From IMG/VR virus record IMGVR_UViG_3300005805_000219, positions 1 to 37,118 of that record: a stretch of DNA of 37,118 nucleotides; one strand, 5' to 3'. A program made the translations under genes and the position numbers. A model generated the notes under the pieces. That model saw only the letters and a list, made by a program, of their open reading frames with translations, was not told the DNA's origin and ran no database searches. The stretch is from a virus (Duplodnaviria > Caudoviricetes). Of this stretch, positions 3,929 through 29,285 are shown piece after piece. How positions within the stretch are numbered: the stretch's first letter is position 1; the number at the start of each line of letters is the position of its first letter.

Positions 3929-5374
3929 CTACTCCACCTCGTATGCTGCTTTAGGATCCGTTGGATCTATTGTTGAAATTGGTTGCAATTGATTTGAAGG
4001 CAAACCCGTGTGATTCATGTCAGGTAAACCAACAGCTTCAATTACTGATTTTGGATCAAAACCTACTTGAATTAACTTGGCGGCAATATCGGCGCGAAGG
4101 TTTAGACCCACATCTTTTGCGTCCGCTGCATCGATATTTTGCAATGGAACTCGGTACTGATCTCCAGATTCTCCAAGAGGTGCTAAATCTTCTACATAAC
4201 GGACATCGTTCAGACTTAAGAAGCCTTCACGTAGACCTTTTGTATATGCATCATAACGCTCAATTGTTGTTCCACGCAGTAAAGCATCTAAATTAAACTT
4301 AATAAAACCATCTGGTTCAGGAAGCAAAGGCGATAGTGCTTGCTCTAATCTTTCAAGCAACGGTCTTAGCGAGTGTTGTACAAATGATAAGTTCTGAGCT
4401 TCAACAGATGCAAATGACATTGCGCCAGCAACAGGGTGGCCAAGCAGTGATACAGGAACACGAAATAGTCTAGCAATTTCTTCTACACCAAATCGTCGTA
4501 CTTCTAGTAGTTGTGCATCTGCAGCATTCAGAGTTAGTGGCTTAAATGTTGCGCCACTAGTTAAAATGCCAAGTTTTCCTGCGCGATAAGGTCCTGTGTG
4601 TGACATATTCCAGTTACGAGCAATATCAGCGGCTTGTTCTTCAGTCATTTCACCTGGAGATTCAATAACTCCACCAGGATTTGCTGCATTTCCAAAATAA
4701 CTTGCTGCATAAACTTCTGCGGCCATAGCAGAACCTAAAGTGATGCGAGCTGCTGCAATTGGGCCAAGTCCAAGCAATTGTCCTGGCAACTTAAACATAG
4801 GAATGTGTAGCATTTCGTTCTTTGTCAGAACCATTGTTTTTACTGACATTGGATCAAACGGTTGTGCATTGTCATAAAACTGATTTACTGGATCTTGTGC
4901 ATTTTGTCCAATAGTAACTATGTATTCAATCTCGCCCATTGGATCAGGACGACGAATACGAACTTGGAGTGGGTTTATGCAGTAAAGTTCTTGAACGTCG
5001 CCCAGATCGTCACGTACCGTTAAAATGAATGCATTGCCATGAAGGTTTAGAGAAGAAATTACTTGCTCATAAAACTCTAAGCGAGTTGAGTCAGGATTTG
5101 GTTTGTTAATCCATGCAGGCATTTCACCATATACTGATGCATAATTTATTCTAGAACGACCACGACGGACGTAAGCAGAAAGTGGTAGAGAACTAATAGT
5201 GTCACCTAATAGTCGGACACAAGCATAGACAGTTGACATACGAATTGCTGTATCAGAGTTGACATCTACTCCAGCTGGAGTTGCATATAAAGCGCGGCCA
5301 GGTAAAAATGGTTCAAGGTACTGATTGTTTGACCTTTTTTCTCCTGCTTTACGCAGTCTATTCGATAGACTCAT
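3929..5374 (-). CDS. HK97-family portal protein
   Basis: VYACVRLL, LHGNAF, EEIARLFRVP, FNLDALLRG motifs. Confidence 0.95.
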   Translation of the reverse strand: MSLSNRLRKAGEKRSNNQYLEPFLPGRALYATPAGVDVNSDTAIRMSTVYACVRLLGDTISSLPLSAYVRRGRSRINYASVYGEMPAWINKPNPDSTRLEFYEQVISSLNLHGNAFILTVRDDLGDVQELYCINPLQVRIRRPDPMGEIEYIVTIGQNAQDPVNQFYDNAQPFDPMSVKTMVLTKNEMLHIPMFKLPGQLLGLGPIAAARITLGSAMAAEVYAASYFGNAANPGGVIESPGEMTEEQAADIARNWNMSHTGPYRAGKLGILTSGATFKPLTLNAADAQLLEVRRFGVEEIARLFRVPVSLLGHPVAGAMSFASVEAQNLSFVQHSLRPLLERLEQALSPLLPEPDGFIKFNLDALLRGTTIERYDAYTKGLREGFLSLNDVRYVEDLAPLGESGDQYRVPLQNIDAADAKDVGLNLRADIAAKLIQVGFDPKSVIEAVGLPDMNHTGLPSNQLQPISTIDPTDPKAAYEVE

Positions 5375-6450
5375 TTATCTGCCTTTTCTGTGCTTAGTTG
5401 ATACCAGCCGTCGTCCCATAGAGTCAACAACCTTTGAAAGTAATCTTGATACTTAGGTGCAATTGCTTTAAGTGAGTATTTTTCTATTGCTTGCTTTCTA
5501 ATAAAATCTCTGTCAAGATCTTTTACATCTTCTGCAGCTTTGATAAAGTCCGCAAGAGATCTACATCTAAAACCAGTAATTCCATGGATATTGGTTTCTG
5601 TAAAAGCTCCCCAATCCGTTGTGATTGTTGGAGTTCCACAAGTCTGAGCTTCTACTACTATATTTCCAAATGGTTCAATATAAGTAGTAGGGGCAAATAA
5701 TGCAATGGCATTTCCCATTAGTTTTGCTCGTTCTTCAGGGCCAATATTGCCTATAAACTCGCCATAACCGGTGCCTCTTTCATCACCTGGACCTGCCAAA
5801 ATTAACCGTTTGCCTAATCGTTCACATACTTCTTGAGCAATTCTAAAACCTTTTCGCTCAATCATGCGGCCAATATAAAAGTAATAGTCACCTTTTCCTG
5901 AGCCTTTTGGAAACATTTCCGGTTCAAGATAACCATTTATAACGCCATCAAAAAATTCACCATCAACCGTGGTCGGATTCTTATAAGCTGCATAGATTGA
6001 ATGCATCCATGCATAAGATTCAAACACACGATATTTTGCAAAAGTGCCACCATAACCGATACCAAATTCTACTGACATGTGATCTGGAAAAGCATCTGCA
6101 ATCGGTTTGTGAGCATATCCACCAATAAGACAAATAAAGTCTTTTGGTTGAAGTCTATTAGTCATTTCTTTAATGACATTCCCATTAAAGATTTGCCAAT
6201 GCGGTAAAGTTGTATCAAATGAAGCAGAAGTATAATGATTATTACCAACTGCCGCTTGTCTTTCGTTTTCTGAAATACAAGTTACTAGTTCTGTTACTGA
6301 TGCTTCATTTTCTGATCCGGCATAAAGGATGACTTCATGCTCAAGATCTTTCATCATGATGCAGAAGCGCCTAACTTTTTCGGTGAATGCGCAGCTTGTA
6401 AAGTCTTTAGTCGTGTTTGTGTGTGGAAGCGATACAACGTGAAATCTCAT
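5371..6450 (-). CDS. GT-B fold glycosyltransferase (GT4-like)
   Basis: GRMIERKG and EPFGNIVVEAQTCGTPTITTDWG (EX7E) motifs. ATG at 6450 follows a GGGGGA RBS. Confidence 0.9.
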   Translation of the reverse strand: MRFHVVSLPHTNTTKDFTSCAFTEKVRRFCIMMKDLEHEVILYAGSENEASVTELVTCISENERQAAVGNNHYTSASFDTTLPHWQIFNGNVIKEMTNRLQPKDFICLIGGYAHKPIADAFPDHMSVEFGIGYGGTFAKYRVFESYAWMHSIYAAYKNPTTVDGEFFDGVINGYLEPEMFPKGSGKGDYYFYIGRMIERKGFRIAQEVCERLGKRLILAGPGDERGTGYGEFIGNIGPEERAKLMGNAIALFAPTTYIEPFGNIVVEAQTCGTPTITTDWGAFTETNIHGITGFRCRSLADFIKAAEDVKDLDRDFIRKQAIEKYSLKAIAPKYQDYFQRLLTLWDDGWYQLSTEKADK

Positions 6451-6470
6451 TGGTCCCCCGACCTTGTTCA

Positions 6471-6698
6471 CTAGAGTGCAGCGATTTCTTCTGCTGTAAG
6501 CCCAAGAGCTGCAAGTTTTGCTTCTGCTGAGGCTTTGGCAATCGCTTTGGCCTCTTCTTCTAATTTGCGTGCTTCATCTCTAGCAGCCAATTCATCAGCA
6601 ACTTTTTTATTTGCTTTGATTTCTTCTTCTGTAAAAGGACGTCGTATAACTTCACCAGTTGTGCAATTAACTTCGACGACCATAGGTTCTTCGTTCAT
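6471..6698 (-). CDS. Hypothetical protein (possible fibre chaperone/assembly factor)
   Basis: 75 aa with helical C-terminus AKLAALGLTAEEIAAL. AAGGAG RBS. Confidence 0.7.
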   Translation of the reverse strand: MNEEPMVVEVNCTTGEVIRRPFTEEEIKANKKVADELAARDEARKLEEEAKAIAKASAEAKLAALGLTAEEIAAL

Positions 6699-8318: not shown

Positions 8319-9026
8319 TTAGGCTATGTCTCCCACGATGGTAAAGGTATTTGCTGCGGTGCAGATTACAGTAGCCGCTGAGTATTGTGCCCTTGTTTTT
8401 GGAGCTGCAACTGTTGCACCAGTTGAAGTAATAGTAACACCTGAACCTTGTGCAAATGTTATTTGACCTGTGCCGATTTGTTGGACATGAATCTGGTCAT
8501 TTGCACTAAACACTGAAGGAGGTACAGTCAGCGTTGCAGCTGCATTGATAGTTACAATCTTATTTAGATCTCCAGCAACAAGAGTGTAGTTGCCAGTTTG
8601 TGCGTTAAAACCAACCAAAAGACCAGGACCTGTTGGACCAGTTGCTCCGGTTGGTCCTGTTGCACCTACAGGTCCAGTTGCACCGACTGGGCCAGTTGCA
8701 CCTTCGGGACCTGTAGCACCTGTTGGGCCAACGTCGCCTTGAACACCCTGCGGACCAGTTGCACCGACTGGACCTGTTGCGCCAGTTGGTCCTTCAACTC
8801 CAGTTGCACCGGTAGGACCGGTTGCACCGACAGGACCGGTAGCACCTACAGGACCGGTTGCTCCTGCAGCATAAGCATAAGCAAGAGAGTTCCATGCAGT
8901 TGCGCCATCACCAATCTTAAACTTAGTTGTATCAGTTTCATAACCGATTTCACCTTGCGCAAGTGTTGGATTGTTAGATGTCCAATTTGCTGCCGTATCT
9001 CGGCGATTTTGGAGTCTTGCTGTCAT
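8319..9026 (-). CDS. Collagen-like fibre protein with Mtd/hyaluronidase-type N-terminal domain
   Basis: N-terminal [34 protein letters not shown], central Gly-X-Y repeats, C-terminal domain ending IVGDIA. Confidence 0.8.
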
Positions 9027-9047
9027 AGTGGCTTCTTTCTCTCTTTG

Positions 9048-10843
<1,796 letters not shown>

Positions 10844-10844
<1 letters not shown>

Positions 10845-16683: not shown

Positions 16684-16807
16684 GGCGTTTGCCTTTCTGT
16701 TTTGCTTTGCAATCGTTGCAAAAATGAGGATTACCCATGAGTTTATCTAATGCGTATAAATAAGTCCATGCCCCACATGCTTCACATCTAGCAACTGGTT
16801 CAGTCAT
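16673..16807 (-). CDS. Small zinc-finger protein, 44 aa (not in ORF track)
   Basis: MTEPVARCEACG...FCNDCK. Fills the gap between adjacent genes. Confidence 0.6.
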   Translation of the reverse strand: MTEPVARCEACGAWTYLYALDKLMGNPHFCNDCKAKQKGKRRVA

Positions 16808-17609
16808 TGATTTTACCTGCCAAGAATCTTTCGAAACGAGTCAATTGATCTGGTATGTTGCCTTTGAGAATAGATCTTGCGGTATGACTGATTTCACCAA
16901 TGCTATTTCCGGTCCACATAGGCTCGTAATCTTTGAATGAGCCATTAAAGTAGGCTTTAATCCATTGTGCTTGAGGTATGTGTTCATCATAAATGTGTAA
17001 ACTACCTACAACATGCACATATTGACCCATTTCAATGTCTAAAGCTTTTGCAATTGCACCTTGTAGAGCAATAAATTGTGTTAAATCATATGGAAGACCT
17101 AAAAATACGTCGTTGCTTCTCATATTAGTTCTAGCAATCAATTTGTTATCTCTGATAAAATATTGCAAGTTCAAGGTACATGGAACATCTTTAACATCAA
17201 CGTTAAGATCTTTATTTGAGTCAAATATAGTCAAAACAGCTTGTCTGGTTGAATAGTCTTTTTTCAATTGCTCAACAAGTTTATTTAGATTACCGTGAAT
17301 TCGTGGACCATAAGCGCCATGGAGAATGCCACCATCCATGTACTTTCCAAACACTTGACTTGTATCTGTCATTGCTTCTGGATCAGTAACTTGTCCAACT
17401 AGTTGTAATGCTTCTTTAATGCCAATATTATGGTTTAGTTTACGGTTTTCCATAGACACAGGTATGTTCCATGGCTTTTCAACCTGTAAAGTAACATTTA
17501 GAAGCTCTCTGGTAACCATTCCACGAGGTGAAATTGCCTCACCATGTTCAATCACATATTGAGTTGCAAGTTCTAAAGCTTCACTTGGATTTTCTGTAAT
17601 TATATGCAT
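16800..17609 (-). CDS. Thymidylate synthase-superfamily enzyme, probably dCMP (hydroxy)methylase
   Basis: GAYGPRI, TRQAV, catalytic DVPCT, MRSNDVFLGLPYD (Asp where ThyA has Asn), GSLHIY. Confidence 0.85.
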   Translation of the reverse strand: MHIITENPSEALELATQYVIEHGEAISPRGMVTRELLNVTLQVEKPWNIPVSMENRKLNHNIGIKEALQLVGQVTDPEAMTDTSQVFGKYMDGGILHGAYGPRIHGNLNKLVEQLKKDYSTRQAVLTIFDSNKDLNVDVKDVPCTLNLQYFIRDNKLIARTNMRSNDVFLGLPYDLTQFIALQGAIAKALDIEMGQYVHVVGSLHIYDEHIPQAQWIKAYFNGSFKDYEPMWTGNSIGEISHTARSILKGNIPDQLTRFERFLAGKIND

Positions 17610-18052
17610 TACCTAACCACCTCACTATGGATTATTTTTTTGTCTAAATATCGAACTTGTCTAAATGCTTCTACAAATAAAGATCTAGAATGCAAAACAA
17701 AATCTATTTGCATTTCTTCGCCTCTTCTTAATAATTCTTCAGCAATTGCATCTTCAGATCTTGTAAGTAGGATTAGTCTAGCACCTAACTTAGCAAGTTC
17801 CCAATTACAATAGTCAAATGTCGTTTCATCAAATAGTGATTGTCGACCGTATATTTTAGGCCATACAACTTCACCTAAATGCCAACGATCTAAAATCATA
17901 TTTGGTGAGGTAATTGGTCGGATATATTCATCAGACCATAACCTTGTTTTTGGTTGTTCAGCATGTAAATATTTTGCATTAAATCGTTCAGATAATTTTT
18001 GAGCATAAGTAGTTTTACCTGTACCATCTGCGCCTTCGATAATGGTAATCAT
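17609..18052 (-). CDS. Deoxynucleoside monophosphate kinase (dTMP kinase-like)
   Basis: P-loop EGADGTGKTT and ILDRW motif. Confidence 0.85.
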   Translation of the reverse strand: MITIIEGADGTGKTTYAQKLSERFNAKYLHAEQPKTRLWSDEYIRPITSPNMILDRWHLGEVVWPKIYGRQSLFDETTFDYCNWELAKLGARLILLTRSEDAIAEELLRRGEEMQIDFVLHSRSLFVEAFRQVRYLDKKIIHSEVVR

Positions 18053-18936
18053 CTAAACTCACCCCATTCTCTAAAACTATCGACTTGTGAATGGACCATT
18101 GTAACTGGTTTTACGTCACCTGCTACATTCCATACTAAAGTTGATGCTGTTTTAGGTGCTGCTGTTTTGTCCAACATAAATCTTTCTAAACCTTTGCAAT
18201 CATAGGTTGGTGCTGAGTCAATTTCTTCATTGATCTTGTCTGCATAGTCAGCTTTTTCTCTGAAACCTTTATGGTACGTTGCAACGTCCGCTCTTCCGAT
18301 TTCACCTGGATGTAGATTTCTTGCAACTGCGACTCCGTGGAAGATGGCATTTGGCCATGCAATTTGTAAAGTTCTTGTAAGTACTCCTGTACTAATGACT
18401 GATACAACATCTCTTGGTTCATCTCGATCTCCCCATTGTTGGATTGTTGATTTGACTCCAGCTGCGACCACTAATGGATGATCCAATCCAAAAGGTACGA
18501 ATTGAGCATTGTTTTCATTTGCCCAATCTTTTGCGTATTTGTTTAGAACTGGCATTGCTGCGATTCTTCGAAAGATTGGATTTGCTCCTCTTTCAATACA
18601 AACAAGCTGATGGTCACTTACTACTTTTGAGGAAGGCATAAACAATGTTAACTTTTTGTTATATTTCTTTGCAAGTGCGGCTAATGATACTCCTGCCCAA
18701 CCAACTCTAGGTTGGACATATACCAAATGATCTGATTCCATTGTTTTTACTAATAGATCTCCCCACCGGCCTTTTGTACCAACTCCTGTATTTGAATCGT
18801 CCCAAATAGTTGCACCATGGAATGTAGTTATATTTGGTGGTTGAGTTTCATCTGTCCAATCACCCGCAAGATCTAGCCATTCTTCTCTTGATTTGTGTGC
18901 ATACTTGCTTGATGTGTCCGTCGTTATCTTAAACAC
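18049..18936 (-). CDS. PLP-dependent enzyme, fold type II (Trp synthase beta/cysteine synthase-like)
   Basis: GTKGR (putative PLP Lys), GWAGVSLAALAKKY, LFMP, STGVL phosphate loop, YDCK, WNVAG. Confidence 0.7.
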   Translation of the reverse strand: MFKITTDTSSKYAHKSREEWLDLAGDWTDETQPPNITTFHGATIWDDSNTGVGTKGRWGDLLVKTMESDHLVYVQPRVGWAGVSLAALAKKYNKKLTLFMPSSKVVSDHQLVCIERGANPIFRRIAAMPVLNKYAKDWANENNAQFVPFGLDHPLVVAAGVKSTIQQWGDRDEPRDVVSVISTGVLTRTLQIAWPNAIFHGVAVARNLHPGEIGRADVATYHKGFREKADYADKINEEIDSAPTYDCKGLERFMLDKTAAPKTASTLVWNVAGDVKPVTMVHSQVDSFREWGEFR

Positions 18937-19981
18937 CGTGCGCCTCCAAATGTTTGTGGTAAGTCCAATGTTTCGTATGATTTGGTATAAGTGATTTGTT
19001 TGTTACCTGCCAAGGTTTCAAGTACTCATAACCTTTTGGTACATAACATTCAACATATCGGACGTAGTCGCATGCAACATCTTCAAGACTTAAACCTTTG
19101 CCTAGATTTCTTTCATGGTCACGAGAATCATACGGAGATCTAAACTCATTACAAATCTTTTCCATTGCAGCATCTAAAAAGTCTTTTTGCTTATAACCTT
19201 CGTTTTTGAACAATAGATTTAATGCTTCGATTGCATTCTTACCATAATTGACTTGACTCCATGGATCTATTAAATCAGGGAAATATTGTGCAATGTCCAT
19301 AACAAATGCAGTCATTACAAAATGAAAACACTTTAATCCATTTGACCTGTGCCATTCGTTAATCCAATCAACTCCTTCACGAATTGACATTGATAATGGA
19401 TTATAGGATAAATGAGTATAAAAATCTTTTACTAACCGTGGCATATATTCAGAAATGTATAATTGTGAACCACGTGGGTATTGATCCGTTGGTTTTGGAA
19501 ATTGTGGAATCTGATTGCCAATACTAGTAAATATCGGTCTACCTGATCTCATTTCACTCAAAACATAATTCCTCATGTGAATCATATTATCTGCATTTAT
19601 AGCCATATCAGCTAAAATGCTATTTCTAAATCCATGGTCGTAACTGAATGATGCTCCTGATCCGGTAACTCTATGAATCATAAACAAATAAAACCAGTCC
19701 ATTGCATGTAAATTGTAATTGTCAAAACGTTTATCTACTTGCCACTTCTTTGGATTGTTTGATCCGTACCAAATCTGTTGAATTGCATTACTAAATCCGG
19801 CAAACTCACGGTCAACTGTGTCATAAATTGTAATGTGATGTTGTAGCGGATCATCTACATGCAAATCTTCAGTAGTATCACGACCATTTGGACTTGCAAT
19901 GTTGATTGTTTGCAAGACGACGGCTTTATCGTAATATTGCTTAAAGTCTTCCCAATAGATTGTCTCAATAATTTGGGGCAT
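18929..19981 (-). CDS. aGPT-Pplase1/5-hmdU DNA kinase helical-domain-like DNA-modifying enzyme (putative)
   Basis: Motif order IYDTVDRE...FVMD...YGKNAIEAL...LEDVACDYVRY resembles this helical superfamily, and the gene context fits. Confidence 0.5.
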   Translation of the reverse strand: MPQIIETIYWEDFKQYYDKAVVLQTINIASPNGRDTTEDLHVDDPLQHHITIYDTVDREFAGFSNAIQQIWYGSNNPKKWQVDKRFDNYNLHAMDWFYLFMIHRVTGSGASFSYDHGFRNSILADMAINADNMIHMRNYVLSEMRSGRPIFTSIGNQIPQFPKPTDQYPRGSQLYISEYMPRLVKDFYTHLSYNPLSMSIREGVDWINEWHRSNGLKCFHFVMTAFVMDIAQYFPDLIDPWSQVNYGKNAIEALNLLFKNEGYKQKDFLDAAMEKICNEFRSPYDSRDHERNLGKGLSLEDVACDYVRYVECYVPKGYEYLKPWQVTNKSLIPNHTKHWTYHKHLEAHGV

Positions 19982-20963
19982 TTTTCACCAAATCCCATTC
20001 ATAAAACTCTGGAGATAAATGTACGGATCCAGGTTTTTCCATATAAGTTTTAGCATAATCTTCAGGATCTATGATGTACCAATTTGTTGGCCACTCGTGT
20101 ACGTTCTCAAATTGATATTTCATTTCGTTAGTCATAATGCCCATCAGTCTATCTCTTGATGGCCAAGACCCATAAAATGCTGTTCCCTTATAGAATCCAG
20201 TCTTAGGTATTTTTCTTTCTTCATGCTCAATTGGATATGGAGCAGTTACCTCAAAAGTTCCTATTTTTCCTGTTTGTTGTAACCACTCAAGTTGAATTTT
20301 TAGTGTAGTAACTAGTTTTCTTGCCGCTCCTTCTGGATCTAATTGCCGGCATAAATGATGACGAATGTCGACATTGCCTGCATAAATAACTAAATGCGGC
20401 ACAAAATAGTCAGGTAAATATGAACTGACTCCTCGTTCAGTTAATCCGTGAAGTGTCAAACCGTCATGGCGATAAACAACAGTGTTTGCTCTATATCTAG
20501 AAATTGAATGTGAGTCACCAATAACTACTCGTTGAATATCTAAAACTAGATCTTCATGCTTAATTACTTCACATTTCATTAGATCACGAATCTTAGACCA
20601 TTCTGATTCAGTAAAATCAAAATCAGTTTTTGCAGCACGTGGACGCAAGATTCTTTCAATGTCTCCAATTGGCATGTCCAAAGCTTTGATATTTACAAGA
20701 TCCATATCCAATACTCTGGCAATTCTATCTCTTGTTTCTCTAGTATAACCACCAAATAGATTAAAAACTTCACCTTTGAACTCCATTGGCGTTGATACTA
20801 ACCATGTGCCTTCTTTGACAAGTTCGTCATTATTAAAAGCAATTTCAGATTTAGTATTGAAAGCATTGTCGACCATACATTTCTGCATTCTTGGCCAAGC
20901 AGATCTATGACTAGCAATTCGATCTGTAAATGAAGTAACTACATCATCTAGTATGTATCTCAT
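19965..20963 (-). CDS. SGNH-hydrolase-fold protein of unknown function in modification cluster
   Basis: VVIGDSHS (block I), YAGNVD (block III), GSVHLS (block V). Confidence 0.55.
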   Translation of the reverse strand: MRYILDDVVTSFTDRIASHRSAWPRMQKCMVDNAFNTKSEIAFNNDELVKEGTWLVSTPMEFKGEVFNLFGGYTRETRDRIARVLDMDLVNIKALDMPIGDIERILRPRAAKTDFDFTESEWSKIRDLMKCEVIKHEDLVLDIQRVVIGDSHSISRYRANTVVYRHDGLTLHGLTERGVSSYLPDYFVPHLVIYAGNVDIRHHLCRQLDPEGAARKLVTTLKIQLEWLQQTGKIGTFEVTAPYPIEHEERKIPKTGFYKGTAFYGSWPSRDRLMGIMTNEMKYQFENVHEWPTNWYIIDPEDYAKTYMEKPGSVHLSPEFYEWDLVKNAPNY

Positions 20964-21391
20964 TCTATATGCTCACAAGCAATAGGAGTACAAAGAACAG
21001 CTGCATCATCAAAAGCTCGTCCACAAGTTTTACACTTGCCTTCAACTCCATCGTAACCAGCTAATTGACGTTTTGCATTTTTCTCTGCTTTTGCAAAATA
21101 AACATCTAAGATTTCTTGTTCATTGACATTTGTTACAAGAATTAAATTGCACCAAAAGTGAAGTACATCAATCATTTCTCCAATAAATGCCAACCGATTT
21201 ATATGTCTACTAGTAGCCCATGGCTTCCAACCAGTTTCATTCAAAGCCTCATGCAATTCGTCTGTCAATGCTAATGACATGTCACGGATATACTGAGCTC
21301 TTTCTTCGTCATTCAGAGTGGTAACGTCCACTCCATATGACTTAAGTTGTAGTTTTCTTTGATTGTCCAAAATCATTTGTAAAGCACTCAC
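20960..21391 (-). CDS. All-alpha dimeric dUTPase/dCTPase (T4 gp56-like)
   Basis: DELHEAL...WKPW...EMIDVLHF...YFAKAEKNAKRQ..GY. Confidence 0.85.
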   Translation of the reverse strand: MSALQMILDNQRKLQLKSYGVDVTTLNDEERAQYIRDMSLALTDELHEALNETGWKPWATSRHINRLAFIGEMIDVLHFWCNLILVTNVNEQEILDVYFAKAEKNAKRQLAGYDGVEGKCKTCGRAFDDAAVLCTPIACEHIE

Positions 21392-21813
21392 GGTTTTACC
21401 TCCTGTTTTAGTGAAATATTAAATGTTCTTGCTAATTCAGCAATGGCACCGAGATCGTAAACCGTTCCATCTATCAGATCAGAATACATAACGGAAGTAA
21501 TTCCATAACTAGCAATTACTTTTATACATTCAGAACATGGATGATGCGTACAATACATATAGCCATTTTTTGTTTGATCTGGAGTGCAATAACGCAATGC
21601 GTTCACCTCTGCGTGTATTACAAAACCACGCCTAGCGTCCCTATCTTCCCACGGAATCGTGACGCCAGGCGCAGCCCCATTGTAGCCGATGCTTATTATG
21701 CTTCTATCCCCGCGTAGAACACATGCACCAACTTTTAGATATGGATCTTCACTGCGATAGGAGGCTGCTCTCGCAATCTCCAATCCATATTTGTCCCAAG
21801 ACATTCGAGTCAT
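21388..21813 (-). CDS. dCMP deaminase
   Basis: KVGAC, GYNG, HAEVNAL and PCSEC zinc motifs. Confidence 0.92.
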   Translation of the reverse strand: MTRMSWDKYGLEIARAASYRSEDPYLKVGACVLRGDRSIISIGYNGAAPGVTIPWEDRDARRGFVIHAEVNALRYCTPDQTKNGYMYCTHHPCSECIKVIASYGITSVMYSDLIDGTVYDLGAIAELARTFNISLKQEVKP

Positions 21814-27373: not shown

Positions 27374-27970
27374 TTAATCTAGAAATGCAATGTGATTTTT
27401 TCCAGCTTTTGTCTGTAAGGCTATTTGGACTTGACCACCACTATTGATATCGAATCGGATTGCTGTTTTAACCGCTTGTTCTAAGATCTCGATTGCTTCT
27501 TCATATTCATCTGCTTCATCAATTCCTAGCGCATGAGCAGCTCCAAGAGCAAGTTTGGCGCCTGTTCCTGTGGTGTAAACCTTGTCTTTTGTCTTCTCTA
27601 ATCCATAAACTTCATCGATAAAGTACAAAGTTCCATTGACGGCAACTATGAAATCATTCTCAAACGATGATGGATAGCCTTCAGACTTAATGTCATAACC
27701 TGAGATTCCAAAGGTTTTACGTAGATTTGGCACAAACTGAGTTACCATAAATCTATCTAGATTTTTAGATCTTGGAGGCGCCGGTGGATTAAAAGCATGT
27801 TGGATCAGATTCATGCCTCGGACTAAACCTGCAGCAGAAACTAAGTATTTGCCATTTTCAGCAATTTTGCCCATAGGAGAACAATCAGCTCTCATGTCAT
27901 AACCAGTTGTTTGCGTATCTGCAGCAATGATGCAATAGTCATCATGTTGGTATGCAATGAGTGTTGTCAT
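27374..27970 (-). CDS. Ntn-hydrolase, proteasome beta/HslV-like peptidase
   Basis: M-TTLIA N-terminal Thr, IAADTQ, K at ~33, GTGAKLALGA, DINSGG. Confidence 0.8.
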   Translation of the reverse strand: MTTLIAYQHDDYCIIAADTQTTGYDMRADCSPMGKIAENGKYLVSAAGLVRGMNLIQHAFNPPAPPRSKNLDRFMVTQFVPNLRKTFGISGYDIKSEGYPSSFENDFIVAVNGTLYFIDEVYGLEKTKDKVYTTGTGAKLALGAAHALGIDEADEYEEAIEILEQAVKTAIRFDINSGGQVQIALQTKAGKNHIAFLD

Positions 27971-28236
27971 TATTCCTCCGTAGCCAGTTCTCCGCCAATA
28001 GCCATATAAGCTGCACCATCTACCCAACCATCTAATTTCTCAGGTGATTGGACTAATCGAGCAACTTTGACTTGATTCATACATAATGCAACTTGCCAAG
28101 GTTCTACGGTAATGCCTAAAACTACACTCCAAAGCTTTGCAATGCGGTCATGGTTCTCTTGTGGAGTTCCATAATCTGCTTGCCTATCGTTATAAATTAA
28201 ATGTGTTGCTTCATCTAAGATCTCTTTGCGATTCAT
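27970..28236 (-). CDS. DUF6378-like protein
   Basis: DRQADYGTPQENHDRIAKLWS...VKVAR...DGWVDGAAY. Confidence 0.75.
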   Translation of the reverse strand: MNRKEILDEATHLIYNDRQADYGTPQENHDRIAKLWSVVLGITVEPWQVALCMNQVKVARLVQSPEKLDGWVDGAAYMAIGGELATEE

Positions 28237-29285
28237 TAGTCTAACCAAACTTGATAACAAGCAGTGACACGACCTCGTTCGGGATCAATGAAGTGGAGTC
28301 TTTGAGAAGGAACACCTGAGGCGGCCATAGAGTCGCGCGCGTACCTATTATCGGACTCTGTTGAACCGGTCCAATATACTGATCCAAGACCATCTGATAA
28401 CGGTTCTTGTGCATGACGATGGTAATGACCCAAGTATATGTCTTGAAAGTTCCAGTCGTAAGCTCCAGCTTTCCATCTGTTTCCTGCTGCTTGCCATCCG
28501 GCCGGAGAAGCAAAACCAGATCTACCAACTTCATCGCCATGCATAAGAAGAGCTCGATAGTTGCCGATCTCAATGCGCTGAATATCTTCAACACCATGGC
28601 GTGGATCCCATGTCAGTCTTTTAGCAGTCGCTTCTTCAGAACATAATAACTGACGAGCCAACTCATAACACATACGGTCAAAATTATCAGACTTCGGTAC
28701 GTCCGCTCTTTTGTTTCCGATTCGGCCATGATTTCCCCATTCTGCAATAACAGTCACATGGTTGTAAACTGCCAATGCTTGTCGTACAACATCTACAATT
28801 AAACGACTAACTGTTATGTATTGGTCATATAAACTAAGATCTATTTCCCACAATTGAGCAGGATAGTTAAAAAGACCTTCAACCATATCTCCACCAAAGC
28901 AGATTACAACATCATTGACTGGATGGTCTTGTCTTTGTATTTCAGTAATTTTTGTTGCTTTGATTGTAAAGTCCATAACTCTAGTTCTCATGATTTCTGA
29001 GTTATAACTAGGAGTTACTTTTGCTCCTTGCCAATCGGTAAGATGCCATAAAGCAACTTCTGCTCTTTTGCGGCGTTTATCTACCTTTGGACCTTCTATC
29101 GGCTTCATTGGTCCTAAAGCCAAAGTTGCATCTTTGCATGCTTGGATTGTGGCTTCTACTAATTCTTCTGTCCGCTGTTTTGCTTTGGATAATTCTTTTT
29201 GAGTTCTAACAAGTGTCTGACGCAATTCTGCAACTGATTCATCTACTTCAATTTGTAGTTTTTTTGCGTCATCGGACAGAGTCAT
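28236..29285 (-). CDS. Calcineurin-like metallophosphoesterase
   Basis: TDWQ, GGDMVEG, GNHGR, HGD, GHYH motifs. Confidence 0.85.
   Translation of the reverse strand: MTLSDDAKKLQIEVDESVAELRQTLVRTQKELSKAKQRTEELVEATIQACKDATLALGPMKPIEGPKVDKRRKRAEVALWHLTDWQGAKVTPSYNSEIMRTRVMDFTIKATKITEIQRQDHPVNDVVICFGGDMVEGLFNYPAQLWEIDLSLYDQYITVSRLIVDVVRQALAVYNHVTVIAEWGNHGRIGNKRADVPKSDNFDRMCYELARQLLCSEEATAKRLTWDPRHGVEDIQRIEIGNYRALLMHGDEVGRSGFASPAGWQAAGNRWKAGAYDWNFQDIYLGHYHRHAQEPLSDGLGSVYWTGSTESDNRYARDSMAASGVPSQRLHFIDPERGRVTACYQVWLD

What the first reader, a model, noticed from the sequence alone, without database searches (positions are those of the whole stretch)
18049..20963. SGNH-fold / aGPT-Pplase-like / PLP trio with no recognisable amino acid:DNA transferase
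Known thymidine hypermodification needs both a DNA kinase and an amino acid:DNA transferase before the PLP step. Here I see only one helical-domain gene. The extra gene has SGNH-like blocks (GDSH, GNVD, SVH), a fold used for acyl transfer and hydrolysis. Inference: the SGNH protein may acylate or aminoacylate the base, or process a PLP-made donor, which would be a different chemistry.
Basis: inference. Interest (0 to 1): 0.75.

Follow-up and report, generated by a model that had tools for sequence, protein, structure and literature searches.

The report
Esterase-fold phage cytosine hypermodification module
This phage carries a widely shared three-gene set that sits beside genes predicted to make hydroxymethylcytosine DNA, and it likely disguises that base by a route not found in the papers searched, in which an esterase-like enzyme probably primes the base and a partner enzyme then likely attaches an amino-acid-derived group.

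Summary
The three genes are real and travel together in distant phages, but the frame is cytosine, not thymidine. The neighbouring thymidylate-synthase homolog has the dCMP-hydroxymethylase signature (76 of 80 contigs with such a gene), and no hmU-DNA kinase was found in the complete genome. ORF 19965-20963 joins an N-terminal domain resembling T4 beta-glucosyltransferase's (HHalign about 82-85%, decoys 3% or less) to an SGNH fold with invariant Ser151/Asn197/His315. The helical gene is not a missing piece: its best fold match is the PaMx11 amino acid:DNA transferase, with the Glu-x3-Cys catalytic spacing kept. The PLP enzyme resembles M6 gp52 decarboxylase. Across phages the SGNH gene stays while the cassette swaps (helical-A+PLP versus helical-B+inositol synthase; 77%-identical SGNH pair), and SGNH-helical fusions recur. 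Best model (about 45%): SGNH O-acylates hmC in DNA in place of the kinase, the helical enzyme swaps the ester for an amino acid, PLP decarboxylates. Against: Aeromonas phage 25 and PTm1 keep a diverged SGNH with no helical partner. No chemistry is shown. This scan noted the module before on other DNA; I found no paper on it.

The parts
19965..20963 (-). 332-aa two-domain protein: N-terminal domain (about aa 1-138) resembling the N-terminal domain of T4 beta-glucosyltransferase, plus an SGNH domain (about aa 142-325; S151, G168, N197, H315; no canonical DxxH Asp, E309 invariant). Predicted 5hmC-DNA O-acyltransferase.
18929..19981 (-). 350-aa all-helical HhH-glycosylase-like protein of the aGPT-PPlase group ('helical-A'), with E300-x3-C304. 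Predicted cargo:DNA transferase.
18049..18936 (-). 295-aa fold-type II PLP enzyme; K55 invariant and aligned with M6 gp52 K36. Predicted decarboxylase of the amino acid-base adduct.
16800..17609 (-). Thymidylate-synthase homolog with D141/C144/D167/D175 (= E. coli L143D, C146, D169, N177D). Predicted dCMP hydroxymethylase.
17609..18052 (-). 147-aa TMK-like dNMP kinase, predicted to phosphorylate hm-dCMP; no PF18748 (hmU-DNA kinase) match.
20960..21391 (-). Dimeric dUTPase_2-family pyrophosphatase, likely dCTPase/dUTPase supplying dCMP (role of T4 gp56).
21388..21813 (-). dCMP deaminase, balancing the pyrimidine pool.

Best explanation
These genes form a conserved phage module predicted to hypermodify 5-hydroxymethylcytosine (hmC) in DNA: the SGNH protein likely O-acylates the hmC hydroxyl as an activating step, the helical protein likely replaces that ester with an amino acid side chain, and the PLP enzyme likely decarboxylates the adduct. 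Step 0 (sequence signature; inferred activity): the pyrophosphatase, dCMP hydroxymethylase and dNMP kinase make hm-dCTP, which is built into DNA. Step 1 (fold shown, reaction inferred): the BGT-like domain engages hmC and the Ser151-His315 SGNH site transfers an acyl group, most simply acetyl from acetyl-CoA, giving 5-acyloxymethyl-C. This does the job that the 5-hmdU DNA kinase does in thymidine pathways. Step 2 (catalytic motif shown, reaction inferred): Cys304 attacks C6, the carboxylate leaves, and the exocyclic methylene is captured by a side-chain nucleophile. Serine hydroxyl is the simplest guess, as in ViI, because the cluster has no radical-SAM isomerase to free an alpha-amine. Step 3 (inferred): decarboxylation gives a cationic base such as 5-(2-aminoethoxy)methyl-dC. 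Purpose (inferred): protection from host nucleases. Confidence that the module acts on hmC DNA is about 0.85; confidence in this full order of steps is about 0.45.
For: Substrate: the TS homolog's best PDB hit is the CMP hydroxymethylase MilA (E 1.4e-21); it has the L143D/D169/N177D signature described in PMC13326640. 76 of 80 SGNH contigs with a TS-profile hit carry D/D/D. All 40 Aeromonas/Stenotrophomonas records with an SGNH homolog also appear among the gp42 hits, and 44RR, 31 and 25 are reported to have g42 but no glucosyltransferases (PMC2993671). SGNH N-terminal domain versus a 7-sequence BGT alignment: probability 85%/E 5.8e-6 and 82%/E 1.1e-5 locally, against 3% or less for 49 decoy families and 0.13% for reversed BGT. 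No hmU-DNA kinase in the complete genome or in 5 related records, while M6 and PaMx11 ring. Helical protein: top fold match is PaMx11 gp46 (Z 10.2, 220 aligned, rmsd 4.2), whose Glu243/Cys247 are catalytic (PMC11472151); E300 and C304 are in 29 of 29 rows. SGNH is fused to helical-A in 8 and to helical-B in 2 of 149 representative proteins examined. Cassette swap: of 146 SGNH contigs, 74 carry helical-A+PLP and 45 helical-B+inositol-phosphate synthase, with no cross pairing. The cassette label changes at least 4-5 times on the SGNH tree, and an A/B pair is 77% identical, so SGNH does a cargo-independent step.
Against: No activity was measured for any protein. Aeromonas phage 25 and Tenacibaculum phage PTm1 (complete records) keep an SGNH homolog with no helical gene detected. 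Phage 25 has UDP-galactopyranose mutase and a possible glycosyltransferase there instead. PTm1's synthase has the 5-hydroxy-dCMP signature, which cannot form a methylene. These SGNH copies keep Ser/Asn/His but have lost 5 and 11 of 26 invariants, so they may be relics or repurposed. By language-model features the helical protein is nearer clade 1 (PF18723), and M6's clade-1 gp55 was dispensable in vitro (PMC8989533). Z 10.2 for a helical protein lies in the range the tool calls ambiguous, and profile-sequence searches against gp46/gp51/gp55 found nothing. The BGT link covers about 70-90 columns and BGT did not appear in fold searches of the whole model. The acyl donor is unknown. The sample is redundant and partly selected on helical-A.
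Confidence: 0.45

Rival explanations
1. Decoration last: the helical enzyme adds the cargo directly to unactivated hmC (Cys-C6 adduct, loss of water), and the SGNH enzyme is a terminal acyltransferase that caps the cargo (amine, inositol or sugar hydroxyl) or leftover hmC.
For: SGNH persists without a helical partner beside sugar-pathway genes in phage 25 and PTm1 and keeps Ser/Asn/His. PaMx11 ends its pathway with an acetyltransferase (PMC8989533 Table 1). An O-carbamoyl ester of hmC is a stable natural end product (PMC8670742). Cytosine methyltransferases can couple thiols to unactivated hmC (recalled, not checked).
Against: 77%-identical SGNH proteins pair with an amino-acid cassette and an inositol cassette, which is hard to fit with acting on the cargo. 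The BGT-like domain points to the hmC hydroxyl as acceptor. Known transferases of this fold need a leaving group.
Confidence: 0.25
2. One reading: SGNH is the group-transfer enzyme. It loads an aminoacyl or other acyl group, possibly made by the PLP enzyme, onto the base, while the helical protein is only a base-flipping or accessory subunit.
For: The SGNH fold and Ser/His are intact. SGNH-helical fusions parallel the kinase-helical fusion of SP10 gp186. M6 gp55 of clade 1 was dispensable.
Against: The cargo genes follow the helical type, not the SGNH lineage. The catalytic-type Glu/Cys is invariant in both helical types. The PLP gene resembles a post-transfer decarboxylase, which needs a free carboxylate that an ester would not leave. 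SP10 makes glutamyl-T with only a clade-1 domain listed.
Confidence: 0.12
3. SGNH activates or edits hmC by non-acyl chemistry (for example phosphoryl or other group transfer through Ser151), or is an esterase that removes a protecting group.
For: Many invariant basic residues (R165, R201, H203, R250, R270) and no DxxH aspartate are unusual for a plain acyltransferase. Most structural neighbours are hydrolases.
Against: The oxyanion-hole residues G168 and N197 are kept, as expected for acyl chemistry. The basic residues could bind DNA or CoA. No gene for installing a removable group is conserved in the clusters.
Confidence: 0.12
4. A thymidine (hmU) hypermodification system like that of M6 or ViI.
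For: The helical and PLP genes are relatives of M6/ViI enzymes, and a dCMP deaminase and a dUTPase-family gene are in the operon.
Against: Asp at the N177 position here and in 77 of 77 readable linked synthases found by the profile. T4-type hmC phages carry the same accessory genes. No PF18748 kinase.
Confidence: 0.04

Closest known systems
Thymidine hypermodification of phages ViI, M6 and PaMx11 (5-HMUDK kinase, aGPT-PPlase2/AADT, PLP decarboxylase; PMC8989533, PMC11472151)
   Same: HhH-fold transferase with Glu-x3-Cys, fold-type II PLP enzyme related to M6 gp52, clustering with a TS-family hydroxymethylase.
   Different: Cytosine-type synthase; no P-loop DNA kinase; an SGNH gene in its place; the helical protein is outside PF18724 and below the PF18723 cut-off.
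T4 hmC glucosylation (gp42, gp56, gp1, beta-glucosyltransferase)
   Same: Predicted hm-dCTP supply genes; the SGNH protein's N-terminal domain resembles BGT's, including the N-(L/F)-F-G-G motif.
   Different: The UDP-glucose-binding C-terminal domain is replaced by an SGNH domain (129 of 129 full-length hits); transferase and PLP genes are added.
5hmC O-carbamoyltransferase of phages (PMC8670742)
   Same: An ester-type group placed on the hmC hydroxyl of DNA, by a gene linked to an N177D synthase.
   Different: TobZ-like fold, not SGNH; the carbamate is the end product, with no helical transferase or PLP step.
SGNH/GDSL esterases and O-acetyltransferases (for example OatA C-terminal domain, PatB, Ape1, MsAcT)
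   Same: Fold, and Ser (GDS), Gly, Asn and His positions.
   Different: No DxxH aspartate, fused to a BGT-like domain, found in DNA-modification operons; no sequence-level Pfam hit for the window protein.

Membership tests
SGNH hydrolase superfamily | Alpha/beta/alpha SGNH fold | tested here: met
   Foldseek E 2e-5; VIA Z 13.6, rmsd 2.8, 167 aligned
SGNH hydrolase superfamily | Block I Ser, block II Gly, block III Asn, block V His | tested here: met
   S151, G168, N197, H315 invariant in A1; S151, N197, H315 invariant in the more diverse A5; positions fit the secondary structure
SGNH hydrolase superfamily | Block V Asp-x-x-His | tested here: not met
   The sequence is P-G-S-V-H; invariant E309 could stand in, but geometry was not measurable (no coordinates given)
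SGNH hydrolase superfamily | Acyl-enzyme catalysis | not testable with these tools
   needs an assay
Amino acid:DNA transferase (PF18724, aGPT-PPlase2) | Profile match to PF18724 | tested here: not met
   0 of 111 members matched; M6 gp51 control matched
Amino acid:DNA transferase (PF18724, aGPT-PPlase2) | HhH-like two-bundle fold | tested here: met
   8z2m is the top hit, Z 10.2, followed by HhH glycosylases; Z is in the ambiguous range for helical proteins
Amino acid:DNA transferase (PF18724, aGPT-PPlase2) | Catalytic Glu and Cys four residues apart | tested here: met
   E300/C304 in 29 of 29 rows versus E243/C247; equivalence is by motif, not by superposition
aGPT-PPlase1 (PF18723) | Profile match above cut-off | tested here: inconclusive
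   No HMM hit for the window protein; Atlas neighbours at 0.96-0.97 carry PF18723 on 11-14% of members; helical-B proteins pass the cut-off
Thymidine hypermodification system | dUMP-specific hydroxymethylase (Asn177) | tested here: not met
   Asp175 at this position
Thymidine hypermodification system | 5-hmdU DNA kinase (PF18748) | tested here: not met
   none in G000, estimated 100% complete; control rang in 2 of 2
dCMP hydroxymethylase | L143D/E, D169, N177D, catalytic Cys | tested here: met
   D141, C144, D167, D175 (signature)
T4 beta-glucosyltransferase family | N-terminal domain homology | tested here: met
   HHalign 82-85%, E about 1e-5, decoys 3% or less; moderate evidence, not confirmed by fold search
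T4 beta-glucosyltransferase family | C-terminal UDP-sugar-binding domain | tested here: not met
   the C-terminal domain is SGNH
M6 gp52/ViI gp226 PLP decarboxylases | Homology and Schiff-base lysine | tested here: met
   profile hits M6 gp52 at E 6e-5 (Z=20,000) versus 2.9 for a cysteine-synthase-like protein; K55 in 30 of 30 rows

The most novel reading that the evidence does not exclude
A chimeric enzyme, T4 glucosyltransferase's hmC-engaging domain grafted onto an SGNH acyltransferase, activates hydroxymethylcytosine in DNA as an ester. Swappable HhH-fold transferases then load amino-acid-derived or inositol groups onto it. This would be an acyl-activated, kinase-free hypermodification logic producing a family of undescribed cytosines across siphoviruses, T7-like and T4-like phages.
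Probability: 0.45. Interest if true: 0.85.

Novelty: new variant of a known kind. Interest (0 to 1): 0.68.

Why it matters
In the papers I read, the groups on phage hmC are sugars or a carbamoyl, and amino-acid transfer has been shown only on hmU after phosphorylation. This module would add amine-bearing and polyol cytosines, a DNA-acting SGNH enzyme, and a new way to activate a base. It makes an open question testable in cultured phages: what Aeromonas phages 44RR, 31 and 25 put on their hmC without T4 glucosyltransferases (raised in PMC2993671). An enzyme pair that activates and substitutes 5hmC could also be a labelling tool for epigenetics. The family is common: about 990 stored viral stretches matched the SGNH patterns by the tool's estimate.

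Tried and rejected
Pfam and PDB sequence searches gave nothing useful for the SGNH or helical protein; the uS15 hit at E 0.001 is spurious. Foldseek on the helical model gave no match at E 0.001 or better. The Atlas feature search of the N-terminal domain was blank. The complex prediction of helical with SGNH returned no answer. HHalign of helical-A against the AADT and clade-1 pairs was weak (4% and 0.6%). The small kinase matches the M6/PaMx11 DNA kinases only over the 35-column Walker A region, so I rejected it as the DNA kinase. The module was not found in T4, VPE25, ATCCB, M6 or PaMx11 (0 of 5; that call had no positive control). Iyer et al. 2013, the source of the aGPT-PPlase names, is not held, so I could not check whether it or its supplement mentions this family. 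A search for structural text on BGT Phe72 found 0 papers; the role of BGT's N-terminal domain in binding DNA and hmC is recalled.
Full report
Setting. The window is a whole viral record of 37,118 bases, estimated 100% complete, about 40% G+C, with terminase, portal, HK97-type capsid and a WhiB gene. An actinobacterial host is inferred from WhiB. The finding lies in a run of overlapping minus-strand genes: dCMP deaminase, dimeric dUTPase-family enzyme, 332-aa, 350-aa and 295-aa proteins, a small kinase and a thymidylate-synthase (TS) homolog.

Observation. The three ORFs and the motifs are as described. The 332-aa protein folds confidently (pLDDT 93.5) and its residues about 140-325 match SGNH enzymes. 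S151, N197 and H315 are invariant in 33 diverse homologs, together with many basic residues; the canonical Asp before His is absent.

The base is cytosine. The TS homolog's best solved relative is the CMP hydroxymethylase MilA. It has Asp at the positions of E. coli L143, D169 and N177. PMC13326640 (sections 24, 28, 29 read) ties these to dCMP use and hydroxymethylation, and D169N to hydroxylation. PMC8670742 (passages) also links Asp177 to modified cytosine. Among 146 SGNH-bearing contigs, 80 had a hit to my TS profile: 76 read D/D/D, 1 read E/N/D (PTm1) and 3 were unreadable. The profile was built from these loci, and the parser did not score the ordinary ThyA copies that G001 and PTm1 also carry. 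All 40 Aeromonas/Stenotrophomonas records with an SGNH homolog (40 of 43 hits) are among the gp42 hits. PMC2993671 (passages) lists 44RR, 31 and 25 as having g42 without glucosyltransferases.

The N-terminal domain. A 33-row alignment of residues 1-140 aligns to a 7-row alignment of T4-type beta-glucosyltransferases at 85% probability, E 5.8e-6, over 70 columns, including N-L-F-G-G against N-F-F-G-G. In a local rerun it scored 82%, against at most 3% for 49 decoy families and 0.13% for the reversed alignment. This is moderate evidence: whole-model fold searches did not list BGT. A profile of the domain found 285 representatives at E 0.001 or better. Of the 149 examined, all 129 of 290 aa or more carry the SGNH domain behind it, 126 with GDSH. 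That BGT's N-terminal domain binds DNA and the hmC acceptor is recalled.

The helical gene. No HMM match, but its model (pLDDT 96.4) ranks PaMx11 gp46 first (Z 10.2, 220 residues, rmsd 4.2), then HhH glycosylases. Atlas neighbours carry PF18723 on 11-14% of members. E300 and C304 are in 29 of 29 diverse rows, the spacing of gp46's E243/C247 (PMC11472151, passages). PMC8989533 (sections 14 part 1, 17, 19, 21 and passages) shows this Cys and Glu are essential and that transfer runs through an exocyclic methylene. Clade membership is unsettled: M6's clade-1 gp55 was dispensable, but SP10 lists only a clade-1 domain (PMC5889632, passages). What I did not find is the DNA kinase: PF18748 gave 0 of 1 for this genome and 0 of 5 related records, against 2 of 2 controls.

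The PLP gene. K55 is in 30 of 30 rows and aligns with M6 gp52 K36; the profile prefers gp52 (E 6e-5) to a cysteine-synthase-like protein (E 2.9). No radical-SAM gene appeared among 52 window ORFs scanned, so a side-chain linkage as in ViI is the simpler inference.

Co-occurrence and the swap. After merging duplicate fetches there were 154 contigs or records, 146 with the SGNH domain: 74 helical-A+PLP, 45 helical-B+inositol-1-phosphate synthase, 13 synthase only, 5 helical-A only, 2 PLP only, 2 helical-B only and 5 with none; no cross pairing. The 8 contigs with a helical gene but no SGNH all start at a contig edge. Caveats: 93 of the 146 fall in two near-identical groups, and loci L102-L158 were selected on helical-A. 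At 60% identity there are 31 groups: 20 A+PLP, 6 B+inositol, 1 B, 1 mixed, 3 none. The 19 loci from genome contigs were selected on SGNH only and show both cassettes in the same gene frame. On a quick tree of 41 chosen SGNH rows the cassette label needs 7 changes, at least 4-5 forced by well-supported branches; L191 (A, helical gene cut by the contig end) and L196 (B) are 77% identical. SGNH is fused to helical-A in 8 and to helical-B in 2 of the 149 representatives, including 44RR ORF233c. The cargo genes therefore follow the helical type while SGNH stays, which is what a shared activation step predicts.

Results against. Phage 25 has no helical-B match and no phage record matched helical-A. 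It carries UDP-galactopyranose mutase and a 358-aa gene weakly like BGT's C-terminal half (6.7%, E 0.005) beside a stand-alone SGNH. PTm1 has no helical match and a D169N synthase. Both SGNH copies keep Ser/Asn/His but only 21 and 15 of 26 invariants, against 26 of 26 in 44RR and AS4. They may be decaying or may acylate a sugar or the base directly, which keeps the 'decoration' rival alive. L093, L100 and L101 have an intact SGNH and TS with no helical gene on fragments 3-24% complete, which is inconclusive.

Literature. Searches found no paper joining SGNH with DNA base modification; in the lists, no DNA-modification paper contained the term. PMC11955845 (part 1 of 2 read) concerns a different thymidine cluster. 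Iyer et al. 2013 could not be read, and no supplements were opened; either may bear on novelty. Earlier notes of this scan describe the same module and the inositol variant on other genomes. I had reached the cytosine and inositol readings before seeing them (and my stated reading), and they are not independent support.

Verdict. A real, widespread and apparently undescribed hmC hypermodification module. It works like the ViI pathway but fails membership on base and kinase. It is a new variant of a known kind with possibly new activation chemistry, and every reaction is still inferred. Interest 0.68.

Noticed in passing
L203:1276-4547 (Aeromonas phage 25, NC_008208): A third cassette at the same locus: UDP-galactopyranose mutase, a 358-aa unknown weakly like BGT's C-terminal half, and a diverged stand-alone SGNH. 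It suggests galactofuranosyl-hmC in phage 25 relatives, in place of 44RR's symporter plus SGNH-helical fusion.
   Followed up: partly
L001:5408-9388 (44RR2.8t ORF234c-233c); L003: A sodium:solute symporter lies directly upstream of the SGNH-helical-B fusion and no inositol synthase is nearby; the phage may import its cargo (inositol or a sugar).
   Followed up: partly
L048-L099, L192, L195, L196, L198-L202: Inositol-1-phosphate synthase + HAD + optional FkbM methyltransferase + PF18723 helical + SGNH; a predicted inositol-modified hmC. L054 and L072 carry a related gene (TAGT glycosyltransferase by Pfam in L072) in place of or beside the methyltransferase.
   Followed up: partly
L171/L176 (Tenacibaculum phage PTm1, 120913-123851): TS homolog with the E143/N169/D177 5-hydroxy-dCMP signature beside a nucleotidyltransferase-kinase and a histidine phosphatase: a candidate glycosylated 5-hydroxycytosine phage.
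   Followed up: partly
window 1-37118: No DNA polymerase among 52 ORFs scanned, so the host replisome would have to use hm-dCTP; substitution may be partial.
   Followed up: no
window 27970-28260: DUF6378 gene, far from the operon here but adjacent to the SGNH or TS gene in many other loci.
   Followed up: no
window 5371-6471, 8319-10844, 27374-28027: GT-B glycosyltransferase (Glycos_transf_1) among the structural genes, collagen-repeat tail proteins, and a small proteasome-subunit-like gene.
   Followed up: no
L032/L103: PLP gene cut at 110 aa with downstream genes inverted; probably a misassembly or rearrangement.
   Followed up: no
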